Positions 1,482 to 8,665 of a stretch of 19,831 nt of DNA are shown in pieces (position 1 is the stretch's first letter; each line of letters opens with the position of its first letter). The notes beneath the pieces were generated by a model. The model searched no databases and was not told the origin of the DNA. It saw only the letters and a program-made list of their open reading frames with translations. The translations under genes and the position numbers were made by a program. Source of the stretch: a filamentous cyanobacterium CCP2 (GTDB lineage Bacteria; Cyanobacteriota; Cyanobacteriia; Elainellales; Elainellaceae). The DNA lies in contig PVWD01000095.1 of assembly GCA_003003615.1 (NCBI GenBank), positions 1 to 19,831 on the forward strand. Reading direction: 5' to 3'.

Positions 1482-1661
1482 GCTCAGGCAGGGGAAGGAT
1501 GGAAATTCAATCAACAAGCTGGGTGAAACTTTGAAATCGTTGCTAAAGCGCGATCGTATTCTTCTTCGGTTTCAATCACTTTTGGTGTTGTTTCTGTTAG
1601 TAAATTGCGGTAGGCGATCGGGTTAAAAGTAAGGGTCATTTCTTCAAAATTGGCGCATAGT

Positions 1662-2930
1662 CTATTTTGGCTTTAACCAACTTTTGACGATCGCTTTACC
1701 AATATTGACATACGGATTATCTAAAAACTCCTCTATTGTTGCTTCAGTACCAGCTTGTAAAGCAGCAACAACTCGACGTTTAAAACTAGGAGTCGTTTCG
1801 TCATTAACATATACGATTTTCTCAGCTTCAGTTGCAGTTGGGTTAGATTTTTCTAGCTGCTTGAGAAGTTGCTGAATTTGTTCTGCCGCCTCAGTAAGAG
1901 TTTGTTTTTGCTCGGATTGAATAAAGGTATTGTTATCTGATCGAGCATATTTACCAACAGCACCTGCTTGCCCGACATTGTATATATCACCTTGATTGTC
2001 TGTATTCATTTCTCCTATTACCTGTTTATTTTCTGTTGTAGCTTTTGTTTCTATCGTTAAAGATGGTAGACCTTTATTGGCAAGCGTATGAATAAATCCT
2101 TCCAAACTAGAGTAATGTTGTCGATAAAGGGTTATTAGCTCATCTTTCCCTCTAAGTTCAGCCTGATATCTTGCTTCTAATACTTGGACGGAGTTTGTGT
2201 AGTTATACATCAAGTCTTCTAGAATAACTTCTTTGTTAGCATTAGCAGGAACCTTGACTTGAATTACCCAAATACCGTCGTCTCTTTGAGAAATACTTTG
2301 GACTTTGAGTTCAACATCTTCATTTTCAGTTACTATTAAGAAAGATTGCTCAAGAGCTTTCCAATTTACTCCTGCTGGCAGTGGAAGCGAAATCAAATCA
2401 GATGCGTTAGTTACGAGTTTAATATCTTGAATTTCTACACGAGTGACTTTAATCCCCCAAGGCTTAGTGGCTTCATCCAAATTTCTCAGCAATGCACGAA
2501 TGATTCGATAGCGATTTGTGTTCGCCTCCTGAAAGGACATTCGTCTTACTTCTGAGCGTACTGTTGTAATGATTAGGTTTTCGACACCAGCTTCTACATC
2601 TTCAACTGCATAATGCGCGTGCTCCAATTCAGAAATCCGCCAGAATACCACAGTCTCGACTGCAATCCGAACATTGTCTGCTGTCATCGCTTCACTCTTC
2701 GCTGTTTCAGAGCCAATACGTAACGAAACTTGCTCTTTTGTAGAAGCTATGACAACCATTTCATCAACAAATGGAATAATCCCAAAGTGAAGCCCGGGCG
2801 TTAACTTTCTGTGATATCGCCCCAACCGCTCGACCAGTGCTTCACTACCTTCCTGAACTCTTTTAGTTGATGCAAAACTCGCAACTATAACAATAAGAAT
2901 AAAAGAGAATAGCCAAATTAGAGAGTCCAT
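1662..2930 (-). CDS. SPFH/Band-7 (stomatin/prohibitin/HflK-C-like) membrane protein with a coiled-coil and an unassigned ~110-aa C-terminal domain
   Basis: 422 aa. N-terminal TM helix LIWLFSFILIVIVASF, followed by the typical SPFH core (VQEGSEALVERLGRYHRKLTPGLHFGIIPFVDEMVVIASTKEQ..., VRSEVRRMSFQEANTNRYRI...). The gene is about 40% GC against about 52% for its neighbours and contains no HIP1 sites. Confidence 0.85.
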   Translation of the reverse strand: MDSLIWLFSFILIVIVASFASTKRVQEGSEALVERLGRYHRKLTPGLHFGIIPFVDEMVVIASTKEQVSLRIGSETAKSEAMTADNVRIAVETVVFWRISELEHAHYAVEDVEAGVENLIITTVRSEVRRMSFQEANTNRYRIIRALLRNLDEATKPWGIKVTRVEIQDIKLVTNASDLISLPLPAGVNWKALEQSFLIVTENEDVELKVQSISQRDDGIWVIQVKVPANANKEVILEDLMYNYTNSVQVLEARYQAELRGKDELITLYRQHYSSLEGFIHTLANKGLPSLTIETKATTENKQVIGEMNTDNQGDIYNVGQAGAVGKYARSDNNTFIQSEQKQTLTEAAEQIQQLLKQLEKSNPTATEAEKIVYVNDETTPSFKRRVVAALQAGTEATIEEFLDNPYVNIGKAIVKSWLKPK

Positions 2931-2952
2931 GTGCCGCAGTTTCAGTATTTAC

Positions 2953-2985
2953 GGTCAAAGTAGCGAGCTTGTTTGTTCTTTGACC
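2953..2985. promoter_or_regulatory. Inverted repeat GGTCAAAG-N17-CTTTGACC just upstream of the SPFH start
   Basis: Perfect 8-bp arms with a 17-bp spacer, lying 23-55 bp upstream of the minus-strand start at 2930. Candidate operator or promoter element. Confidence 0.3.
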
Positions 2986-3069
2986 ATTAGTCTATCCTCT
3001 TTTCCACGAAACTAGTTTTAACCAGAGGGCAGCAGTCCCCAACCGCGTCCTTACTACGATTGCTCATAC

Positions 3070-3140
3070 TCACCCTTAATCTGCTCCAGGTTATGCCGAT
3101 CGATCAGTTCCCGAATTCGATCGGTTTGCAAGCACTCTTC
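3070..3140. repeat. Copy 1 of a 71-bp direct repeat (67/71 identical to 4991..5061). It is the displaced 3' fragment of an RHH-like gene and contains an internal palindrome CCGATCGA-N13-TCGATCGG.
   Basis: Direct comparison of the two copies. On the minus strand this copy reads ...PEECLQTDRIRELIDRHNLEQIKGEYEQS*, against ...EEYLQTDRIRELIDRHNLDQIKGDDEAE* for the intact gene at 4975..5181. Confidence 0.8.
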
Positions 3141-3187
3141 TGGTTTACGTAGTAGAGCACAATGCTCGAAAAGCCCCACATGAAGTC

Positions 3188-3229
3188 GATCAGTTTAAAT
3201 GTTACTGATCTTAAATGTTACTGATCAGT
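3188..3229. repeat. Composite palindrome with a tandem 16-bp duplication (TTAAATGTTACTGATC x2), bounded by GATCAGT/ACTGATC arms
   Basis: GATCAGT-TTAAATGTT-ACTGATC-TTAAATGTT-ACTGATCAGT. The tandem units are 3195-3210 and 3211-3226. Sits downstream of the high-GC gene and inside the repeat-bracketed segment. Confidence 0.6.
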
Positions 3230-3369
3230 GCGTAGTCGTCTAAACGAAGCCGACGCGTGCCGATCGCGGTGCAAGGTGGGCTTTGGTCCACTCAGCACCA
3301 CTTTGAAGAGAAGCACTTCTACAGAGGTACGGCACCAGCGGAAGGGAACTTCGAACTCGGCTTGCGTCA

Positions 3370-4158
3370 TCATCGTGCTCTTCTCGGTCTCTTTGAAGCC
3401 GCGTTCATTCGTTCTATTTGCGTCTGCTGTTCGTCGAGATTGCGCTCGTGTTCGGCCTTTGCTTCGTGATGGGCGAACTGATCGCCCGATGCTCGGTCTG
3501 AGAGTTCGTGCAGACGGTGCTTGCGGCCATAGAGGACGAGCAGATCCCTAGGACGAAGCTGTAGATCCGCTGGAGGAGTCCCGATGTAATCTTCACGTGA
3601 TCGCTTGACCCCAAGTACGAGGACACCCTCGGCTGCAAGGTTGAGCTCACCAATCGCGTGATTCGCCAACCAGGTACCGTCTTCGACTTCAACCTCAACG
3701 ATCCGGTAATCCTCGCGAAGATGCAGCAGGTCGGCGTAATCTCTCAGATCGAGCGTGGTGTAGCGGGCCAGTGAACGCTCGATCAGGGGCGTGAGCACTC
3801 GGTTGAAGGCCCGGCTTCGAGCCAGTCCGATGAGCACGCAGACGCCCAGCAGCAGCACCAACAAACGCTCCGGTGCCGTCTGCCCAGATCCGACGAAGGA
3901 GAGCAGCAGCGTCGATATCGCCGACACGACTCCGATGGAGCCAAGTCGAATGAGTTGGGTGGCAATCCGCCGCCGCGCTGGGTTCTTCACAATGGACTCT
4001 GCTTCGTCAGTCGTGAATCCGGTGCCTGAGAAGGCCGAGAGTGCTTGGAAACGCGCCACCTCCTCCGATAAACCCGTCATCAAGAAAGCAACGGAGCCTA
4101 CCCGAATCACCAACATTGAAAGGGCCAGAACGAGCAGAAGGGAGACGACAGAAACCAT
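3370..4158 (-). CDS. Membrane protein with a C-terminal TrkA-C/RCK_C regulatory domain (transporter- or channel-associated), foreign high-GC origin
   Basis: 262 aa. N-terminal hydrophobic helices (VVSLLLVLALSMLVIRVGSVAFLM, LGSIGVVSAISTLLLSFVG, LLVLLLGVCVLIGLA) and a TrkA-C-like fold (DYRIVEVEVEDGTWLANHAIGELNLAAEGVLVLGVKRSREDYIGTPPADLQLRPRDLLVLYG). About 60% GC. A strong SD, GAGGAAGGAG, sits 6 nt upstream of the ATG, which is atypical for cyanobacteria. Very few HIP1 sites. Confidence 0.75.
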   Translation of the reverse strand: MVSVVSLLLVLALSMLVIRVGSVAFLMTGLSEEVARFQALSAFSGTGFTTDEAESIVKNPARRRIATQLIRLGSIGVVSAISTLLLSFVGSGQTAPERLLVLLLGVCVLIGLARSRAFNRVLTPLIERSLARYTTLDLRDYADLLHLREDYRIVEVEVEDGTWLANHAIGELNLAAEGVLVLGVKRSREDYIGTPPADLQLRPRDLLVLYGRKHRLHELSDRASGDQFAHHEAKAEHERNLDEQQTQIERMNAASKRPRRAR

Positions 4159-4201
4159 AGCTACTCCTTCCTCAGGGAACAGGGTGAGAACCTGGTTTAA
4201 T

Positions 4202-4456
4202 TCAGAATGCTCCGATCAGTAGCTCGGAGTAGGATTCAAGTCCTCGTGTGAAGTACGCGCGCAGCACCTCCCTACCCACTACCTTTCCTGACGGATTATC
4301 AAGCAGTTTCGCTGCGACGGGCGATACCAGGATCACATCCGCTGCGTAATGGGACAAGCTGGTATCGAGGTCATGTGAGTTCCATGCCTGTACCCAATGA
4401 TGGGCGAAATCGTGCAGTTCTATCTCGGTGAGCATGGCAGTCTCCGCAAGAGGCAT
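4202..4456 (-). pseudogene. SnoaL-like/NTF2-like small protein, probably C-terminally truncated. Alternative starts: GTG at 4492, ATG at 4435.
   Basis: MLTEIELHDFAHHWVQAWNSHDLDTSLSHYAADVILVSP... matches the NTF2-like/SnoaL polyketide-cyclase-like N-terminal half. The ORF ends after about 85-96 aa, right at the junction with the high-GC segment, whereas the family is usually 120-140 aa. Confidence 0.5.
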
Positions 4457-4479
4457 AACTATATATTCACCGTCAAAAG

Positions 4480-4689
4480 TGCGGGATAACACCCCTATGT
4501 TCCACGATTGTCCATCAGATCTGCGGGATAAAACCAGACTTTCAGGATTTAAACAGAAAAATTGATAGTTAAGTCTGGGGATTTGGGGTGTTATCCGTCA
4601 CATTTGATAGTTAAGTATGGAGATTCGGGTGCCTATCTGTCACTTTTGCTGGATAACATCCTTGATAACGGTATTATCCAGCATCTATC
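4480..4689. promoter_or_regulatory. Cluster of GGATAAC/GTTATCC motifs (repeat-rich att-like or operator-like region). It includes a 42-bp tandem imperfect repeat (4563..4604 and 4605..4646, about 36/42 identical) and a perfect palindrome GCTGGATAA-N17-TTATCCAGC (4648..4682). It lies immediately upstream of the recombinase remnant.
   Basis: Motifs read directly: GCGGGATAACACCCC (4481), GCGGGATAAAACC (4522), GGGGTGTTATCCGTCAC (4585, inverted relative to 4481), GCCTATCTGTCAC, CTGGATAACATCC, TTGATAACGG, GTATTATCCAGC. Each tandem unit carries GTTAAGT. Confidence 0.55.
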
Positions 4690-4830
4690 ATGTCGCAACC
4701 TCAACCGCCACGCCTGCTTGATCAAGTCCGGCGATCGATCCCTCTCAAGCACTTCAGCCTCAAAACTGAGAAATCTTGCGTTCACTACATTCGCGATTTC
4801 ATTCGCGGTAAATGTCATTCAAAGACATAG
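4690..4830 (+). pseudogene. N-terminal remnant (46 codons) of an IntI/XerD-like tyrosine recombinase (Phage_integr_N / PF13495-type SAM-like domain)
   Basis: MSQPQPPRLLDQVRRSIPLKHFSLKTEKSCVHYIRDFIRGKCHSKT* parallels the IntI1 N-terminus ...[33 protein letters not shown]. It ends at a stop after 46 codons. No downstream frame continues a recombinase catalytic domain. Confidence 0.6.
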
Positions 4831-4974
4831 GAGTAATCGTGTAAGAACTACTGAAGTGCAAAATCTAAGCAACGTCGTGCCTTGGCTACGTTTTTTCTTA
4901 ACCTGCAAACCATCGCCTATCTTTTCTGCGATCGCCTCAATCTGATCCACATCAGCTATGCCTGCCAAAAATTC

Positions 4975-5181
4975 TTACTCCGCCTCATCGTCACCCTTAA
5001 TCTGATCCAGGTTATGCCGATCGATCAATTCCCGAATTCGATCGGTTTGCAAGTATTCTTCCAACGCCTCATTGAAGAACTCAGATACAGAGACATTCAT
5101 CAAAGCTGCTAAGGCTTTGACCAGTACGCTTGTTTCAGGATCTAGATAGACTCTAACCTCTGGGTTACGTTTAGCGTTCAC
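4975..5181 (-). CDS. Small RHH (ribbon-helix-helix, CopG/ParD-like) putative DNA-binding or antitoxin protein. Orphan, with no adjacent toxin ORF.
   Basis: 68 aa. RVYLDPETSVLVKALAALMNVSVSEFFNEALEEYL fits the beta-strand plus two-helix RHH pattern. Its 3' 71 bp is duplicated at 3070..3140. Confidence 0.55.
   Translation of the reverse strand: MNAKRNPEVRVYLDPETSVLVKALAALMNVSVSEFFNEALEEYLQTDRIRELIDRHNLDQIKGDDEAE
4991..5061. repeat. Copy 2 of the 71-bp direct repeat, forming the 3' end of the RHH-like CDS
   Basis: 67/71 identity to 3070..3140. Same internal palindrome CCGATCGA-N13-TCGATCGG. Confidence 0.8.
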
Positions 5182-5276
5182 GCGATCGGGTTTGTAGATT
5201 TTTTTCCATACCCTATTGTCTGATATCGAGGTAGTGAGCTATCGTAGTATCGTACTGCCGTAATGACGTAAAACCT

Positions 5277-5408
5277 ATGCCGACCCTCTCCGATGATGAG
5301 TTCAACCTGATCCGCAAACTCCTCATGGACTTACGCTCCATCAAAACCTCCGATCTCGACAAAGCCCTTGCTATCCTGCATAAACGCAACAAACCCATTG
5401 ACCCCTAA
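5277..5408 (+). CDS. Small ORF A1 (43 aa) of a duplicated module. Paralogous to a 27-codon ORF at 8296..8379.
   Basis: MPTLSDDEFNLIRKLLMDLRSIKTSDLDKALAILHKRNKPIDP, against copy B MDLRSIKTSDLDKALAIMSKRTKTNDR. The coding status is uncertain and it could be a non-coding repeated element. Confidence 0.3.
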   Translation: MPTLSDDEFNLIRKLLMDLRSIKTSDLDKALAILHKRNKPIDP

Positions 5409-5600
5409 CCCATCAACCCCTGTACGGGCAAAGCATTGGCAGTGAGATGTATGAATCAAAATCAAAAGTTTCTATGCAAATGCTTCGCCCCTACCCGCGC
5501 AACCCCACAACCGATCGTCCTAAACCCGATCGCCCCTTTCATATGGAGAATTCACCATGCTGATTTTGAATGATGCTCAAGCGTTGATTGTGGAATCATT
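5323..5600. repeat. Copy A of a diverged ~250-bp direct repeat module. Copy B is 8294..8505. The two copies flank the NTPase and pentapeptide gene pair.
   Basis: A near-identical 45-bp core (GGACTTACGCTCCATCAAAACCTCCGATCTCGACAAAGCCCTTGC) occurs at 5328-5372 and 8299-8343. A second conserved block lies around the ATGCTGATTTTGAA start. Confidence 0.75.
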
Positions 5601-5748
5601 GCTGACCAAAATGTTGATTAACGATGCCTATTCGGTTGCCCAATTGGAAGAAGCGATCGGTTGGTTTCAGCAAAAACAAACTGTATCTTGCCCCTTTGAG
5701 CAAACCTGGAGTAGAAATCTGGCTGATGATAAAGATGAGCTGACATGA
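5557..5748 (+). CDS. Small ORF A2 (63 aa) of the duplicated module. Its first ~5 codons (MLILND) are paralogous to a 21-codon ORF at 8465..8530; the two diverge after that.
   Basis: MLILNDAQALIVESLL..., against copy B MLILNDVQALDEIVERLRKVC*. The leaders are conserved: CCCCTTTCATATGGAGAATTCACCATGCTGATTTTGAA versus CCCCTTTGATTTGGAGATTGACCATGCTGATTTTGAA. Confidence 0.3.
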   Translation: MLILNDAQALIVESLLTKMLINDAYSVAQLEEAIGWFQQKQTVSCPFEQTWSRNLADDKDELT

Positions 5749-5837
5749 CCCGCCTAGGGTCTTTTCAGAAACTGATTGAAAAACGATACTGAAACCTTAA
5801 ACTAGGGGAACTCCTCAATTCTCCCTTCCCCCTCCCC

Positions 5838-7310
5838 ATGCCCCTGGACATTCGCCAACTTAACCTGGGTTCCGATTCAGCCGAGCGCGATATCGCCATT
5901 GGACTATCCGAGTATTTCTATCAGAACTCCACCTATCACAAGTTTTTCGACAGCGGCAAAACCATCCTGGTCGGCAATCGGGGCAGCGGCAAAAGTGCCA
6001 TCTTCAAGTACATGGCAGCAGTGGAAGCCCGTAAAGGCAACCTCATCCTCGAATTGTCACCAGAGGAATACTCCTACGAACTATTATCGGAACATTTACG
6101 CAGTGAGAAGGAAGGCTCTTGGGGCAAGCAAAGCTCATACTCGGTCGCCTGGCAATATCTGCTCTATTGCCTCATTTTCAAGAAGATTGTAGAGGAAAAG
6201 CGGGGCTTATTACTGGGGAGTCAAAAGGATATTTTTACCTACGTCCAAAGCCATCTACAGAACCAAAATCTCCATTCCATCAGCATTCTTTTCAACTACT
6301 TGAAGCGGCTAGAGGAAATTAAGCTGGGTAGCCATCAAAGCTTACAGCGATCGCGCGAGCTTCAGAGTCTCTATAGTTTAGAAGAAATCAAGCAACTGCT
6401 GCCGAGCCTCAAAAAAGTATTGGGAAAGCTCAGAGTCAAAGTTTTTATTGATGAACTGGACAAAGGGTGGGATAACTCAGAAGATGCCAAATATTTTCTA
6501 GCTGGACTGTTTCAAGCTGCCCAAAAGCTCAATTTGATCAGCTCTAACTTAAAAATCTATATCTCGATTCGCCAGGAGCTATTTGATAACATTCCTCAAA
6601 TCTACGAAGATGCTCAGAAAATTCGTGAAGACGTAGAGGTGATTCGCTGGGGCAAAGCTGAACTCCTGGAGCTAATTGGACTACGGATTGCCCACTGCTT
6701 CCCGGAACTGCAACAGTCTAATGGTCTGCGCTGCTGGAATTCCATCTTTGTCTCCCAACTGCCCCTCCGCAGCGAAGAATCGATCGGCTCTACATCAGCA
6801 GATTACATCATCGATCGCACCCAACTTCGTCCCCGTGAACTCCTACAGTTTTGCAAACTCTGCATCGAGTACTATAACGGTGGCAAGCGGATTGAGGAAA
6901 ATACTATCTATGCGGCTGAAGAAGTTTATTCAGAACAAAAAATTAAAGATTTAGCCTCAGAATATCGCTTCAAATACCCTCATTTATTAGATCTATTTGA
7001 GGTGTTTCGGGGACATAAAAGCCACTACGAAAAAAATGATCTGGAGTATCTGCTACTGTCTATTGTTTGCGGTGAAGTTGATGTGGATCAGGCAGCATCC
7101 TGGGTGCAGGAACTCGACTACCTGGAACTAAAAAAACTGCTCTGGAATATCGGCTTTCTTAAAGCAAAGGTGCCTCGGCAAATGGGTCAAAACATTGGAG
7201 GCAAAGGTACTTTCTTTGGACACTATGAATTGCCAAGTATCAACCTGGAAAACGTTGAACACTTTTGCATCCACCCCGCTTTCTGCTACTTCCTGAGCCT
7301 CAAATCTTAG
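5838..7310 (+). CDS. P-loop NTPase, NACHT/STAND-like (or other AAA+-like), with a ~200-aa C-terminal helical domain and no fused repeat array
   Basis: 490 aa. Walker A KTILVGNRGSGKSAIFKYM, Walker B RVKVFIDELDKGWD (hhhhDE...D), a TSR-like sensor-1 KIYISIRQE, and a sensor-2-like RPRELLQF. Family assignment is from motifs only. The stop TAG directly abuts the downstream ORF. Confidence 0.8.
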   Translation: MPLDIRQLNLGSDSAERDIAIGLSEYFYQNSTYHKFFDSGKTILVGNRGSGKSAIFKYMAAVEARKGNLILELSPEEYSYELLSEHLRSEKEGSWGKQSSYSVAWQYLLYCLIFKKIVEEKRGLLLGSQKDIFTYVQSHLQNQNLHSISILFNYLKRLEEIKLGSHQSLQRSRELQSLYSLEEIKQLLPSLKKVLGKLRVKVFIDELDKGWDNSEDAKYFLAGLFQAAQKLNLISSNLKIYISIRQELFDNIPQIYEDAQKIREDVEVIRWGKAELLELIGLRIAHCFPELQQSNGLRCWNSIFVSQLPLRSEESIGSTSADYIIDRTQLRPRELLQFCKLCIEYYNGGKRIEENTIYAAEEVYSEQKIKDLASEYRFKYPHLLDLFEVFRGHKSHYEKNDLEYLLLSIVCGEVDVDQAASWVQELDYLELKKLLWNIGFLKAKVPRQMGQNIGGKGTFFGHYELPSINLENVEHFCIHPAFCYFLSLKS

Positions 7311-7376
7311 GTGCTGTTATGCGACAATTTGGTCATACTTTTAAGATTCCATCTAATCGCTATAGAGAGAACCAAT

Positions 7377-8189
7377 ATGCCATGGAACCCGCGAAAATTA
7401 ACGTGTACGCTAGAGTTAGTGGCCCAAAAGATCCCCACTTGGGTCGCCGTGTTGATATCAGTGGTGGGCCTTGCAACGATCGCCCTCTGGGTTCAGGAAG
7501 ATATCGTCATCCGTTCACCGCTTGATCTATTCCAACGCGATACCCTTAAAATTTTCTTTGAGAATGCTGAGTCGTTTGCGATCGTGGCAGCGGTGATTCT
7601 CTACTTCAAAGACGCACCCGATCGCAAAGCCAAGAAACACTACGAAGCGTGGAGTATTATTGACAATGCGGCTGCCGCCAAAGTTGCTACCAGTTACGCG
7701 CGCTTTCAGGCCCTTCAAGACCTCCATAAAGATGGGGTTGCACTTTGTGCTCTGGATGCTCCCCGCGCTAACCTGGCAAAAATTCAGCTCTCCGGTGCCC
7801 ACCTCAATGAGGCGAATTTGCCGGGGGCTGACCTGCGAGAAGCCTATCTGCACCGCTGCGACCTGTCCCAGGCGAATCTACAGGGAGCGAATCTGCAAAA
7901 GGCCAACCTCAAAGGGGCGAACCTGCGTGGAGCGAATCTGCAAGAAGCCAATTTGCGTGATGCCAATCTAAGTGGGGCTGATCTGCGGGAAGCGAATTTA
8001 CGGGGAGCCAACTTACGCAATGCGGAACTCTGGAAATCCCAGTTTTTGGGTGCTGATTTGGAGGATGCAGAACTGAAGTGGGCCGAGCTTCAGGGTGCTG
8101 AACTATACGGGGCAAGGCTGCACCGCACAGTGATGCCCGATGGTAGTTTAGAACAGCAGGAAATTGAGCTTTGGAGCCACTTCCTGTAG
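7377..8189 (+). CDS. Membrane-anchored pentapeptide-repeat protein. Alternative GTG start at 7311 directly abuts the NTPase stop.
   Basis: Two hydrophobic helices (IPTWVAVLISVVGLATIALWV; SFAIVAAVILYF) followed by about 25 A(D/N)LxG-type pentapeptide repeats (ANLQGANLQKANLKGANLRGANLQEANLRDANLSGADLREANLRGANL...). Confidence 0.85.
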   Translation: MPWNPRKLTCTLELVAQKIPTWVAVLISVVGLATIALWVQEDIVIRSPLDLFQRDTLKIFFENAESFAIVAAVILYFKDAPDRKAKKHYEAWSIIDNAAAAKVATSYARFQALQDLHKDGVALCALDAPRANLAKIQLSGAHLNEANLPGADLREAYLHRCDLSQANLQGANLQKANLKGANLRGANLQEANLRDANLSGADLREANLRGANLRNAELWKSQFLGADLEDAELKWAELQGAELYGARLHRTVMPDGSLEQQEIELWSHFL

Positions 8190-8293
8190 GAAAGATGAAA
8201 TTGTGCGACAACTGCGATCGGGGATTTGAAGCGAGAGTACAGATTCTTAAGACCATGAGGGCACAGCTTACCGAAAGTGCCAAACTAAAGTTG

Positions 8294-8505
8294 ATATGGA
8301 CTTACGCTCCATCAAAACCTCCGATCTCGACAAAGCCCTTGCCATCATGAGCAAACGGACTAAAACAAACGATCGCTGACTGGGCGGGCAAGATGCCCAC
8401 CCCACAAGAAGTTAGGCAGACAAGATGTTAATACAAGCCCACCCCTTTGATTTGGAGATTGACCATGCTGATTTTGAACGATGTCCAAGCATTGGATGAA
8501 ATTGT
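8294..8505. repeat. Copy B of the diverged direct repeat module. It carries the short ORFs 8296..8379 and 8465..8530.
   Basis: See copy A. Its central part is shortened and diverged. Confidence 0.75.
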
Positions 8506-8665
8506 CGAGCGACTGCGAAAAGTCTGCTGAATCAAATTGAGAAAGAGAAATGATTTCATTGAAAATGAATCGATCGGCTAACTCTCAACTGATTCGCAGA
8601 TAGTTTAATGCATTAGTCAACTCAGTAAAATTTACAGGTTTCTGTTACGGATTACCAAGAAACGA

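What the first reader, a model, noticed from the sequence alone, without database searches (positions are those of the whole stretch)
3070..5061. 71-bp direct repeats (94% identical) bracket a 1.85-kb mosaic segment; the repeat is the 3' end of an RHH gene, consistent with site-specific integration
Copy 2 forms the last about 24 codons of the intact RHH-like gene (4975..5181). Copy 1 (3070..3140) is a displaced 3' fragment that still translates to …LQTDRIRELIDRHNLEQIKG… on the same strand. Each copy contains the inverted repeat CCGATCGA-N13-TCGATCGG, which looks like a recombinase-binding core. The bracketed DNA contains a high-GC foreign gene, a truncated SnoaL-like gene, a GATAAC-repeat region and a tyrosine-recombinase remnant next to the right-hand repeat. 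This is the classic layout of an integrative element inserted into the 3' end of a gene, with attL and attR regenerating the target. It differs in that the target is a small protein gene rather than a tRNA, and the element is now decayed. A second reading is that the repeats are attC-like cassette boundaries of a degenerate chromosomal integron.
Basis: partly seen in the sequence, partly recalled or inferred. Interest (0 to 1): 0.6.

Follow-up and report, generated by a model that had tools for sequence, protein, structure and literature searches.

The report
Orphaned gene tail beside decayed integron
The two repeats are real, but they are an intact small regulator gene and a leftover copy of its last 28 codons, most likely stranded by ordinary recombination in a scrambled cyanobacterial gene island rather than the attachment sites of an integrating mobile element.

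Summary
The direct repeat is real: 3063-3140 and 4984-5061 share 78 nt at 92%, and the match is far beyond chance. Copy 2 is the 3' end of an intact 68-aa ribbon-helix-helix gene (R). Copy 1 is an orphan tail. The inventory of the DNA between them is also correct.

The attL/attR reading is not supported.
- The "recombinase-binding palindrome" is two CGATCG hexamers, a motif 19-fold over-represented in this window.
- The recombinase stub is integron-type (IntI). It has its own repeat-rich attI-like site, which faces away from R. The stub also occurs without R in other cyanobacteria.
- R's 3' flank, which the model requires to be element DNA, accompanies R in four relatives. None of them has a second tail.
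- The tail is not dispersed: one hit among 185,579 species genomes.
- No attC-like sites or hairpins were found.

My best explanation is that a block carrying its own R copy, dragging a decayed integron platform and cargo, was joined into a resident R gene. Homology anchored one side and an illegitimate junction at 3140/3141 closed the other. Another gene of the same module is demonstrably split by a 2.46-kb insertion. This is an ordinary relic of low interest.

The parts
3054..3140 (-). R': orphan 3' fragment (last 28 codons plus stop) of a ribbon-helix-helix gene. It is direct-repeat copy 1 (repeat proper 3063-3140).
   Evidence: It is 92% identical to the window's own R tail and 94.9% to the R tail of L004/L005. 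There is no RHH domain upstream and no Pfam hit for the 41-aa ORF.
4975..5181 (-). R: intact 68-aa ribbon-helix-helix (CopG/RelB-like) gene. Its last codons are direct-repeat copy 2 (4984-5061).
   Evidence: Homologs at 96-97% identity occur on four metagenome contigs. Homologs at 57-59% identity share only the tail.
3141..3369 (.). Non-coding spacer to the right of the abrupt junction at 3140/3141. It contains a perfect 16-nt x2 tandem/palindromic motif at 3195-3226.
   Evidence: It has no similarity to any fetched locus.
3370..4158 (-). TrkA_C-domain membrane protein gene (262 aa).
   Evidence: Pfam TrkA_C 6e-13. It is 82% nt identical, over the coding region only (3419-4160), to a chromosomal gene in another cyanobacterial contig (L014, ClpB-DUF3082 context). 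The gene's GC is 0.58 in both, so the high GC is a property of the gene family.
4202..4492 (-). Truncated SnoaL_2-like gene (N-terminal half only). Its ATG lies inside the boundary motif GTTATGC.
   Evidence: Pfam SnoaL_2 matches profile positions 2-51 of 102. Sequence.
4447..4689 (.). attI-like region of a decayed integron platform. Five GGATAACACC-like sites sit in both orientations with 42-nt periodicity. The outer edge is C(A/C)TAAC, the reverse complement of GTTA(T/G)G.
   Evidence: 5 of the 6 window matches to GGATAACACC cluster here, against 0.72 expected window-wide. Tandem period 42. The same edge is shared by L007, L010 and L011. GTTAGGT fits GTTRRRY in L007. All three promoter-like matches in the scanned stretch 2800-5400 fall at 4614-4691.
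4690..4830 (+). intI stub: the N-terminal ~46 codons of an integron-type tyrosine recombinase. It carries a 6-nt deletion and a 1-nt frameshift, both shared with L007.
   Evidence: NCBIfam integron integrase E 9e-6, far below the cutoff. tblastn gives 52.8% identity to residues 2-37 of the Kovacikia minuta pB integron integrase, with no other integrase remnant in the window. L007 has lost the ATG.
4893..4974 (.). Native 3' flank of R, which travels with R in relatives.
   Evidence: Shared with L004 and L005 (to 4901), L008 (to 4842) and L007 (through to 4456).
5277..5408 (+). S: 43-aa gene divergent from R. It is a constant partner of R in the R-S-T module.
   Evidence: Found next to R in L003-L008.
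5557..5729 (+). T (5' part): third gene of the module, cut after codon 58.
   Evidence: Nucleotides 8-183 of the Egbenema T gene match window 5554-5729.
5730..8193 (+). 2,464-nt insertion that splits T. It carries an Sll1717-family P-loop ATPase and a pentapeptide-repeat protein, and is flanked by a 5-bp GATGA at both junctions.
8194..8229 (+). T (3' end), displaced by the insertion.
   Evidence: Nucleotides 179-212 of the Egbenema T gene match window 8194-8227 at 94%.
1662..2930 (-). SPFH/Band_7 gene (GC 0.39), downstream of R' on the same strand.
1511..1639 (-). 42-codon ORF (no Pfam hit) that resembles an antitoxin only by eye. It contains a 55-nt patch (1544-1598) that is 98% identical to the gene lying just downstream of R in L005.

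Best explanation
The two repeats are two copies of the 3' end of one small ribbon-helix-helix gene, R. They are not recombination sites.

A DNA block was joined into a resident R gene by general recombination. The block carried its own R copy, R's native 3' flank, an already-decayed integron platform (intI stub plus attI-like repeats) and two cargo genes (a half SnoaL gene and a TrkA_C gene). On the right, homology in R or in the R-S-T module anchored the exchange. On the left, the end of the block was ligated illegitimately into the resident R at codon 44 (junction 3140/3141). The incoming R stayed intact. The resident gene's last 28 codons (R') were stranded 1.9 kb away, still next to their own downstream neighbours.

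Shown here:
- the duplication itself;
- the abrupt junction at 3140/3141;
- the composite nature of the intervening DNA;
- that R's flank and the intI stub travel together in another genome without a second tail;
- that another gene of the same module has been split by an insertion.

Inferred: that R' and the 5' part of R were once one gene, and that the joining was homology-anchored plus illegitimate rather than enzymatically site-specific.
For: 1. Only the tail is duplicated. No relic of S, T or the R 5' half lies between 3141 and 4974 (tblastn). One module plus one insertion is therefore simpler than a second module that was almost wholly deleted.
2. R' is closer to the R allele of L004/L005 (94.9%) than to the R beside it (92%). 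The two copies therefore come from different lineages, not from an in-situ duplication.
3. Synteny: in L005 the gene just downstream of R shares a 55-nt, 98%-identical patch with window 1544-1598, which lies downstream of R' on the same strand. This places R' at the resident position.
4. The block R tail + 3' flank + intI stub + attI-like region (5031-4456) recurs at 90.7% identity in L007, attached to an R gene with a different N-terminal half. This shows that homologous exchange inside the tail happens in this family.
5. B-type R genes are 56-59% nt identical to the window's R in the head but 90-98% identical in the tail. Tails are therefore recombinant patches.
6. A precedent in the same module: T is split by a 2,464-nt insertion with only 5 bp (GATGA) shared at the junctions.
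7. Nothing at 3140/3141 resembles a recombinase site.
Against: - No relative with the predicted pre-insertion state was found, that is, an uninterrupted R carrying the ...EQIKGEYEQS tail next to the Band_7 or antitoxin-like genes. The R family has only five database homologs.
- The source genome outside this contig could not be searched.
- The same final structure would arise from site-specific integration or from truncation of an independent paralogue. The discrimination rests on indirect arguments.
- The near-identity of the tail at the DNA level across genera could also mean that the tail has a DNA-level function.
Confidence: 0.45

Rival explanations
1. Independent paralogue relic. The genome once held a second full R gene (or R-S-T module) at 3054 onward. 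A deletion or unrelated insertion removed everything but its last 28 codons. R' and the present R were never one gene.
For: - Module genes are duplicated and decay locally. S' (8287-8380) and T' (8465-8530) are relics of a second S-T unit, and Egbenema has two S-T units in tandem.
- R-S-T modules sit in a different context in every genome examined.
- R' is a distinct allele.
Against: - It requires complete loss of the R' head and of S and T exactly up to codon 44, with no other relic between 3141 and 4974.
- It gives no reason why the orphan lies in direct orientation only 1.9 kb from an intact R.
Confidence: 0.22
2. An integrative element (3141 to about 5061) carrying a tyrosine integrase inserted site-specifically into the 3' end of R. 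The 71-78-nt repeats are attL/attR, and the element has since decayed.
For: - Direct repeats flank heterogeneous DNA, and the gene is regenerated.
- A tyrosine-recombinase stub lies within 150 nt of the right-hand repeat.
- The tail is unusually conserved at the DNA level across divergent R genes, as an attachment site would be.
Against: - The stub is IntI-type. Its own recombination-site-like region faces away from R, and the stub is found without R in L010 and L011.
- The R flank and stub junction is shared with L007, which has no second tail before core genes begin.
- The 3' flank occurs in L004 and L005 without the stub.
- The breakpoints are nested.
- The palindrome has a 13-nt spacer and consists of two CGATCG hexamers, a motif 19-fold over-represented here. 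Folding is weak.
- The tail occurs once in the one species-representative genome that carries it, out of 185,579 scanned.
Confidence: 0.13
3. The repeats are attC-like boundaries of cassettes in a degenerate chromosomal integron.
For: - An IntI-type stub with an attI-like site is present.
- All ORFs from 1511 to 4492 are co-oriented and opposite to intI, as in a cassette array.
- GTTATGC occurs both at the attI-like edge and inside the repeat.
Against: - Copy 2 lies on the wrong side of intI, outside any array.
- No RYYYAAC...GTTRRRY pair at 40-150 nt spacing exists anywhere in the window.
- The repeat forms only an 8-bp stem with a 13-nt loop, z about -1 to -2.
- It is coding sequence of a conserved protein tail.
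- It is not a multi-copy family.
- The GTTATGC lies mid-repeat, not at a junction, and in the opposite orientation.
Confidence: 0.03
4. R' is retained because it is functional. One possibility is a 41-aa peptide (GTG start at 3179) that keeps the partner-binding tail of R. Another is a DNA or RNA element within the tail.
For: - An open frame of 41 codons is preserved.
- The tail is the most conserved part of the family.
Against: - No promoter-like match lies near it.
- No homologous short ORF exists in 5.8 billion proteins.
- There are two synonymous and two non-synonymous changes in the shared codons, and the last five codons are scrambled.
Confidence: 0.05

Closest known systems
Genomic islands and prophages integrated by tyrosine integrases into the 3' end of a gene (tRNA/tmRNA targets, P4/lambda-type integrases)
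   Same: Direct repeats consist of the target gene's 3' end. An intact gene sits at one end and a displaced 3' fragment at the other, with foreign DNA between them.
   Different: The only recombinase trace is an integron-type stub with its own site facing the other way. The repeat has no core-type architecture. Relatives show no occupancy polymorphism at the repeat. The att-proximal DNA accompanies R in relatives that have no second repeat.
Integrons with decayed integrase (intI pseudogenes, In0-like platforms). These are reported in Cyanobacteria, and about one third of intI genes are pseudogenes (PMC2426708, PMC4889954).
   Same: An IntI-like N-terminus is preceded by a repeat-rich site. The outer edge of that site, where conservation between genomes stops, is a GTTRRRY-like motif. 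Downstream genes are co-oriented and opposite to intI.
   Different: Only about 46 codons of intI survive, so the IntI-specific domain cannot be checked. No attC sites were found. The 71-nt repeats are not part of the platform.
Homology-facilitated illegitimate recombination, that is, one-sided homologous anchoring of foreign DNA during natural transformation (established knowledge, not tested here)
   Same: Foreign DNA is joined with homology on one side and an abrupt junction without homology on the other. A short duplication of recipient sequence is left next to the insert.
   Different: The donor and the pre-insertion recipient are not available, so the mechanism is inferred from the end product only.
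Cyanobacterial gene-interrupting elements excised by XisA/XisC-type recombinases (nifD and hupL elements of Anabaena; from my own knowledge)
   Same: Cyanobacterial host, a protein-coding gene as target, and direct repeats at the element ends.
   Different: Those elements interrupt the gene, carry an intact recombinase, and have short repeats of a few to about 16 bp. Here the gene is intact, the repeat is 78 nt and no cognate recombinase is present.

Membership tests
Site-specifically integrated element (attL/attR at a gene's 3' end) | Direct repeats of target sequence flanking the inserted DNA | tested here: met
   78 nt at 92% (3063-3140 / 4984-5061), with 0 of 200 shuffles matching.
Site-specifically integrated element (attL/attR at a gene's 3' end) | A cognate integrase (P4/lambda/ICE-type) encoded at one end and associated with that att site in related elements | tested here: not met
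   The only remnant is a 46-codon IntI-type stub. It occurs without R in L010 and L011. No other integrase remnant was found in the window.
Site-specifically integrated element (attL/attR at a gene's 3' end) | Core site made of inverted recombinase-binding arms around a 6-8 bp crossover region | tested here: not met
   The arms are two CGATCG hexamers (87 observed against 4.5 expected) extended by one base on each side, and they are separated by 13 nt.
Site-specifically integrated element (attL/attR at a gene's 3' end) | Occupied and empty sites in relatives, with boundaries exactly at the repeat | tested here: not met
   Relatives break at 5031, 4901, 4842 and 4456. The DNA just downstream of R is shared by four relatives that have a single tail. 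No relative of the R' side was found, so this test is incomplete.
Site-specifically integrated element (attL/attR at a gene's 3' end) | Excision to a circular form | not testable with these tools
   Requires reads or PCR from the organism.
Integron | IntI integrase with the family-specific additional domain | tested here: inconclusive
   The N-terminal 36 aa are 52.8% identical to the Kovacikia IntI, whose sequence does contain the ALERKYP...DPRSG...RHH insertion. NCBIfam integron integrase is the best hit, but at 25 bits against a cutoff of 435. The C-terminal part is deleted here.
Integron | attI site upstream of intI ending in a GTTRRRY core where cassettes begin | tested here: inconclusive
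   Conservation among the window, L007, L010 and L011 stops at C(A/C)TAAC. GTTAGGT in L007 fits GTTRRRY, as does L010's GCCTAAC read in reverse complement (GTTAGGC). GTTATGC in the window and L011 departs at one position. Recombinase binding was not tested.
Integron | attC sites (R''-L''...L'-R' imperfect palindromes) bounding cassettes | tested here: not met
   No RYYYAAC-N(40-150)-GTTRRRY pair on either strand of the window. The repeat folds weakly. The IntegronFinder covariance model was not available.
Integron | Cassette genes co-oriented and transcribed away from intI | tested here: met
   The ORFs at 1511-1639, 1662-2930, 3054-3179, 3370-4158 and 4202-4492 are all on the minus strand, and the intI stub is on the plus strand.
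Ribbon-helix-helix (CopG/RelB-like) DNA-binding proteins (for gene R) | N-terminal RHH fold signature | tested here: met
   Pfam RHH_1 at 22.1 bits (cutoff 20.5), residues 11-44. This is marginal, and no structure was predicted.
Type II toxin-antitoxin antitoxin (for gene R) | An adjacent cognate toxin gene | tested here: not met
   The neighbours S (43 aa) and T (67 aa) match no toxin family. The RelB_antitoxin model scores 17 bits against a cutoff of 50.

The most novel reading that the evidence does not exclude
The last ~45-70 nt of R would be a genuine DNA-level recombination target, not just a protein tail. It is 90-98% identical at the nucleotide level between R genes whose remaining sequence is only 56-59% nt identical. 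It marks the point at which different R heads, flanks and the intI-stub block are joined. In this window it brackets inserted DNA. An unidentified (or lost, or trans-acting IntI-like) recombinase would use a small protein-coding gene's 3' end as an attachment site in filamentous cyanobacteria.
Probability: 0.1. Interest if true: 0.6.

Novelty: new member of a known kind. Interest (0 to 1): 0.22.

Why it matters
As it stands, this is a cautionary example. A gene tail duplicated around foreign DNA next to an integrase fragment looks like a textbook attL/attR pair. Comparison with relatives instead points to general recombination in a variable island, and the "binding palindrome" is background from the cyanobacterial CGATCG/HIP1-like motif.

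There is modest positive value in three things:
- It documents a decayed integron platform (intI stub plus a repeat-rich attI-like site) that recurs in several cyanobacteria.
- It documents a small, horizontally shuffled three-gene module (R-S-T) whose tail behaves as a recombination patch.
- It gives a clean example of a P-loop ATPase/pentapeptide gene pair inserted into a small gene.

If the tail were shown to be a real attachment site, it would add a protein-gene target to cyanobacterial site-specific integration.

Tried and rejected
- **Copy-number test.** A strict 34-nt pattern gave 0 hits in 185,579 species genomes. A codon-degenerate 38-nt pattern hit only Egbenema, once, and gave 0 in metagenome contigs and 0 in viral contigs. 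The source genome itself is not in those collections, so copy number in CCP1 outside this contig remains unknown.
- **Plasmid origin.** blastn of 4440-5760 against PLSDB found no match.
- **RNA features.** No Rfam family and no tRNA or tmRNA in the window, so there is no RNA-gene target or known RNA.
- **attC test.** A regex for R''/R' boxes with folding found nothing in the window. In L007 the only relevant hit was the attI-like region itself.
- **Split-module hypothesis.** I considered that R' and the S'/T' relics at 8287-8530 were the two halves of one module split by a 5-kb insertion. I rejected it. T'' (8194-8229) turned out to be the displaced end of the intact module's own T, and S'/T' are a decaying tandem second S-T unit, as in Egbenema.
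- **Full-length relatives of the intI stub.** The word-indexed search returned only three other stubs of 46-81 aa. A metagenome scan with an attI-like pattern returned only the already known L011 contig.
- **Donor of the TrkA_C patch.** The closest DNA match covers the coding region only, so patch boundaries could not be set.
- **Sister strains.** An exact-protein look-up of the MutY-like gene, intended to find sister strains, was not on record.
- **High GC as evidence of foreignness.** This is weakened, because the gene's cyanobacterial homologue has the same GC.
Full report
**Observation.**
The window is a complete 19,831-nt contig of "filamentous cyanobacterium CCP1" (name attached to the identical TrkA-C protein, longest contig 19,831). 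The repeat finder reports 3063-3140 and 4984-5061 as a 78-nt direct repeat at 92% identity. A 47-nt core occurs exactly twice with at most 1 mismatch and never in 200 shuffles.

Allowing a 3-nt indel, the similarity continues to the two stop codons at 3054 and 4975. It ends abruptly at 3140/5061. Copy 2 is the last ~28 codons of an intact 68-aa ORF, 4975..5181(-). I call this gene R. It just passes Pfam RHH_1 at 22.1 bits against 20.5. Copy 1 (R') reads ...EECLQTDRIRELIDRHNLEQIKGEYEQS* on the same strand and has nothing RHH-like upstream.

A second assembly of the organism (GCA_003003915.1) is 100% identical over 2165-6240.

**The palindrome.**
CCGATCGA-N13-TCGATCGG is present in both copies. 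However, CGATCG is itself self-complementary and occurs 87 times in the window against about 4.5 expected, roughly one per 228 nt. Two such hexamers 21 nt apart, each extended by one complementary base on either side, are therefore weak evidence.

As single-stranded DNA, either strand of either copy forms only an 8-bp stem with a 13-nt loop. The z-scores are -1.2 to -2.1. A 13-nt spacer is also not what tyrosine-recombinase core sites look like (established knowledge).

**The recombinase remnant is integron-type and has its own site.**
- The 46-codon ORF 4690..4830(+) hits NCBIfam "integron integrase" with E 9e-6, far below the family cutoff.
- It is about 50% identical to IntI2 and 52.8% identical to residues 2-37 of a full-length integron integrase on Kovacikia minuta plasmid pB. 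That protein contains the IntI-specific ALERKYP...DPRSG...RHH insertion.
- No other piece of an integrase is detectable in the window.
- Upstream of the stub, five of the window's six GGATAACACC-like sites cluster at 4484-4679, against 0.72 expected window-wide. They show 42-nt periodicity.
- All three sigma-70-like matches in 2800-5400 fall at 4614-4691. These are consensus matches only.
- The unit of repeats plus stub recurs in L007 at 90.7% identity, in L011 at 79% over 4448-4802, and in L010.
- In all four sequences conservation stops at the same edge, C(A/C)TAAC at window 4447-4456. This is the reverse complement of GTTA(T/G)G. In L007 it reads GTTAGGT, which fits the integron core GTTRRRY.
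- The window and L007 share a 6-nt deletion and a 1-nt frameshift in the stub, and L007 has lost the ATG. The stub was therefore already dead in their common ancestor.

Integrons and frequent intI pseudogenes are already reported for Cyanobacteria (PMC2426708, PMC4889954). This recombinase family acts at attI and attC sites. Its site here faces away from R. L010 and L011 carry the unit without any R gene.

**What relatives show about R.**
R has only five homologs in the 5.8-billion-protein collection. R is accompanied by a divergent 43-aa gene (S) and usually a 67-aa gene (T). The flanking genes differ in every contig examined. Relatives break from the window at four different points:
- L004 and L005 (R 97.5% identical) share R plus about 80 nt downstream, to window 4901, and then diverge.
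- L008 shares to 4842.
- L007 shares 5031 through 4456, that is R tail, flank, intI stub and attI-like region. Its R head is of a different type.

These nested breakpoints (5031, 4901, 4842, 4456) indicate general recombination rather than one specific crossover site.

In the attL/attR model, the DNA immediately 3' of the intact gene must belong to the element. Yet it accompanies R in four relatives, each of which has exactly one tail. In L007 the sequence in hand continues through about 2.6 kb of accessory genes into MFS, desaturase and phytoene-synthase genes without a second tail.

The tail is also not a dispersed element. There was one hit (Egbenema, single copy) among 185,579 species genomes, and none in the metagenome or viral collections. 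No attC-like R''/R' pair exists in the window.

**The tail is a recombinant patch.**
B-type R genes (L006-L008) are 56-59% identical to the window's R over nucleotides 1-120 and 43% over 121-150. Over 151-192 they are 90-98% identical. The evenly diverged A-type genes of L002 and L003 are only 79-83% identical in that stretch. R' is 94.9% identical to the L004/L005 allele and 92% to the R next to it. The two window copies therefore descend from different alleles.

**A precedent in the same module.**
Nucleotides 8-183 of the Egbenema T gene match window 5554-5729, and nucleotides 179-212 match 8194-8227. GATGA is present at both junctions. T has therefore been split by a 2,464-nt insertion. The insert carries an Sll1717-family P-loop ATPase (NCBIfam 3e-86) and a pentapeptide-repeat protein.

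The further fragments S' (8287-8380) and T' (8465-8530) are a decaying second S-T unit. Egbenema keeps a second unit intact. This locus demonstrably acquires DNA by insertion into module genes without long homology.

**Most likely history.**
One R-S-T module was resident, with R followed downstream by an antitoxin-like gene, as in L005. Window 1544-1598, downstream of R', retains a 55-nt, 98%-identical patch of that gene.

A block carrying another R allele then recombined into the locus. The block also carried R's native flank, the dead integron platform, a half SnoaL gene and a TrkA_C gene. Homology in R/S/T resolved the right side. The left end was joined illegitimately at codon 44 of the resident R (3140/3141). 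This accounts for four things:
- Only the tail is duplicated, with no other module relic between 3141 and 4974.
- The duplication is in direct orientation.
- The copies are different alleles.
- There are no site features at the junction.

I give this 0.45. I give truncation of an independent paralogue 0.22, true site-specific integration 0.13, an attC reading 0.03 and a retained functional mini-ORF 0.05. The remainder is unassigned.

**Composition of the cargo.**
The TrkA_C gene's nearest DNA relative (82%, coding region only) sits in a conserved chromosomal context in another cyanobacterium. It has the same GC of 0.58. The high GC is therefore a property of the gene, not proof of a distant donor. 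The SnoaL gene lacks its C-terminal half and abuts the TrkA_C ribosome-binding region. The segment between the repeats is thus itself a composite of at least three joins, not a single coherent element.

**Verdict.**
The repeat is real and the layout was described correctly, but it is best read as a recombination relic. The neighbouring integron remnant is a passenger or neighbour, not the agent. The kind of thing is known, the mechanism is ordinary, and interest is low. The one reading that would raise it is that the R tail is a DNA-level attachment site. Its cross-genus nucleotide conservation does not exclude this, but nothing else here supports it.

Noticed in passing
window 5554-5729, 5730-8193, 8194-8229: The 67-aa gene T is split by a 2,464-nt insertion with a 5-bp GATGA at both junctions. 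The insert carries an Sll1717-family P-loop ATPase (490 aa) and a pentapeptide-repeat membrane protein (292 aa). No transposase or terminal inverted repeats were seen. The pair could be defence-related, because the ATPase hits an anti-phage model weakly.
   Followed up: partly
window 8287-8380 and 8465-8530: These are relics of a second S-T unit. S' lacks its first ~13 codons. T' is an internally deleted 21-codon ORF that joins the T N-terminus to its C-terminal DEIV..LR motif. Egbenema (L006) has two intact S-T units in tandem.
   Followed up: partly
window 4975-5748; L002-L008: The three small genes R (RHH), S (43 aa) and T (67 aa) form a module found at 84-97% nt identity in several cyanobacterial contigs, including Egbenema. 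The flanking genes differ each time, and similarity mostly ends at the R and T stop codons. Its function and its means of movement are unknown.
   Followed up: partly
window 1544-1598 (within ORF 1511..1639, minus strand); L005 1042-1096: A 55-nt patch is 98% identical between two otherwise dissimilar antitoxin-like ORFs (motif ETTPKVIETEEEYDRAL). Together with the 43-nt R-tail patch in Egbenema, this shows very short, near-identical patches embedded in unrelated sequence. I cannot say whether they reflect short-patch gene conversion or something else.
   Followed up: no
window 4447-4830; L007 10362-10734; L010 2593-2886; L011 1063-1544; L013 3998-4261: intI N-terminal stubs are cut at different lengths (about 39, 46, 78 and 88 codons). 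In four of the five loci they are preceded by the same repeat-rich site, and they recur in different cyanobacteria. The closest database relatives of the stub (77-84% identity) are all stubs, and no close full-length gene was found.
   Followed up: partly
window 8376-8413; L006 984-1088, 5685-5722, 19778-19814; L007 1552-1585, 4254-4285, 19062-19094: A ~35-nt GC-rich hairpin-forming sequence (CTGACTGGGCGGGCAAGATGCCCACCCCACAAGAAG) recurs at 90-100% identity at several places in two other cyanobacterial genomes. It is probably a small dispersed repeat.
   Followed up: no
whole window: CGATCG occurs 87 times against about 4.5 expected, and GCGATCGC (HIP1) occurs 8 times. Any palindrome built on this motif in this genome should be discounted.
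   Followed up: yes
window 3195-3226: A perfect 16-nt x2 tandem repeat (TTAAATGTTACTGATC) is flanked by GATCAG, forming nested palindromes (ACTGATCAGT) in the spacer between the TrkA_C gene and R'. No match was found in any other locus.
   Followed up: no
window 1662-2930: The SPFH/Band_7 gene has GC 0.39 against 0.49 for the window. It lies between R' and the antitoxin-like fragment, which suggests it is a separate insertion.
   Followed up: no
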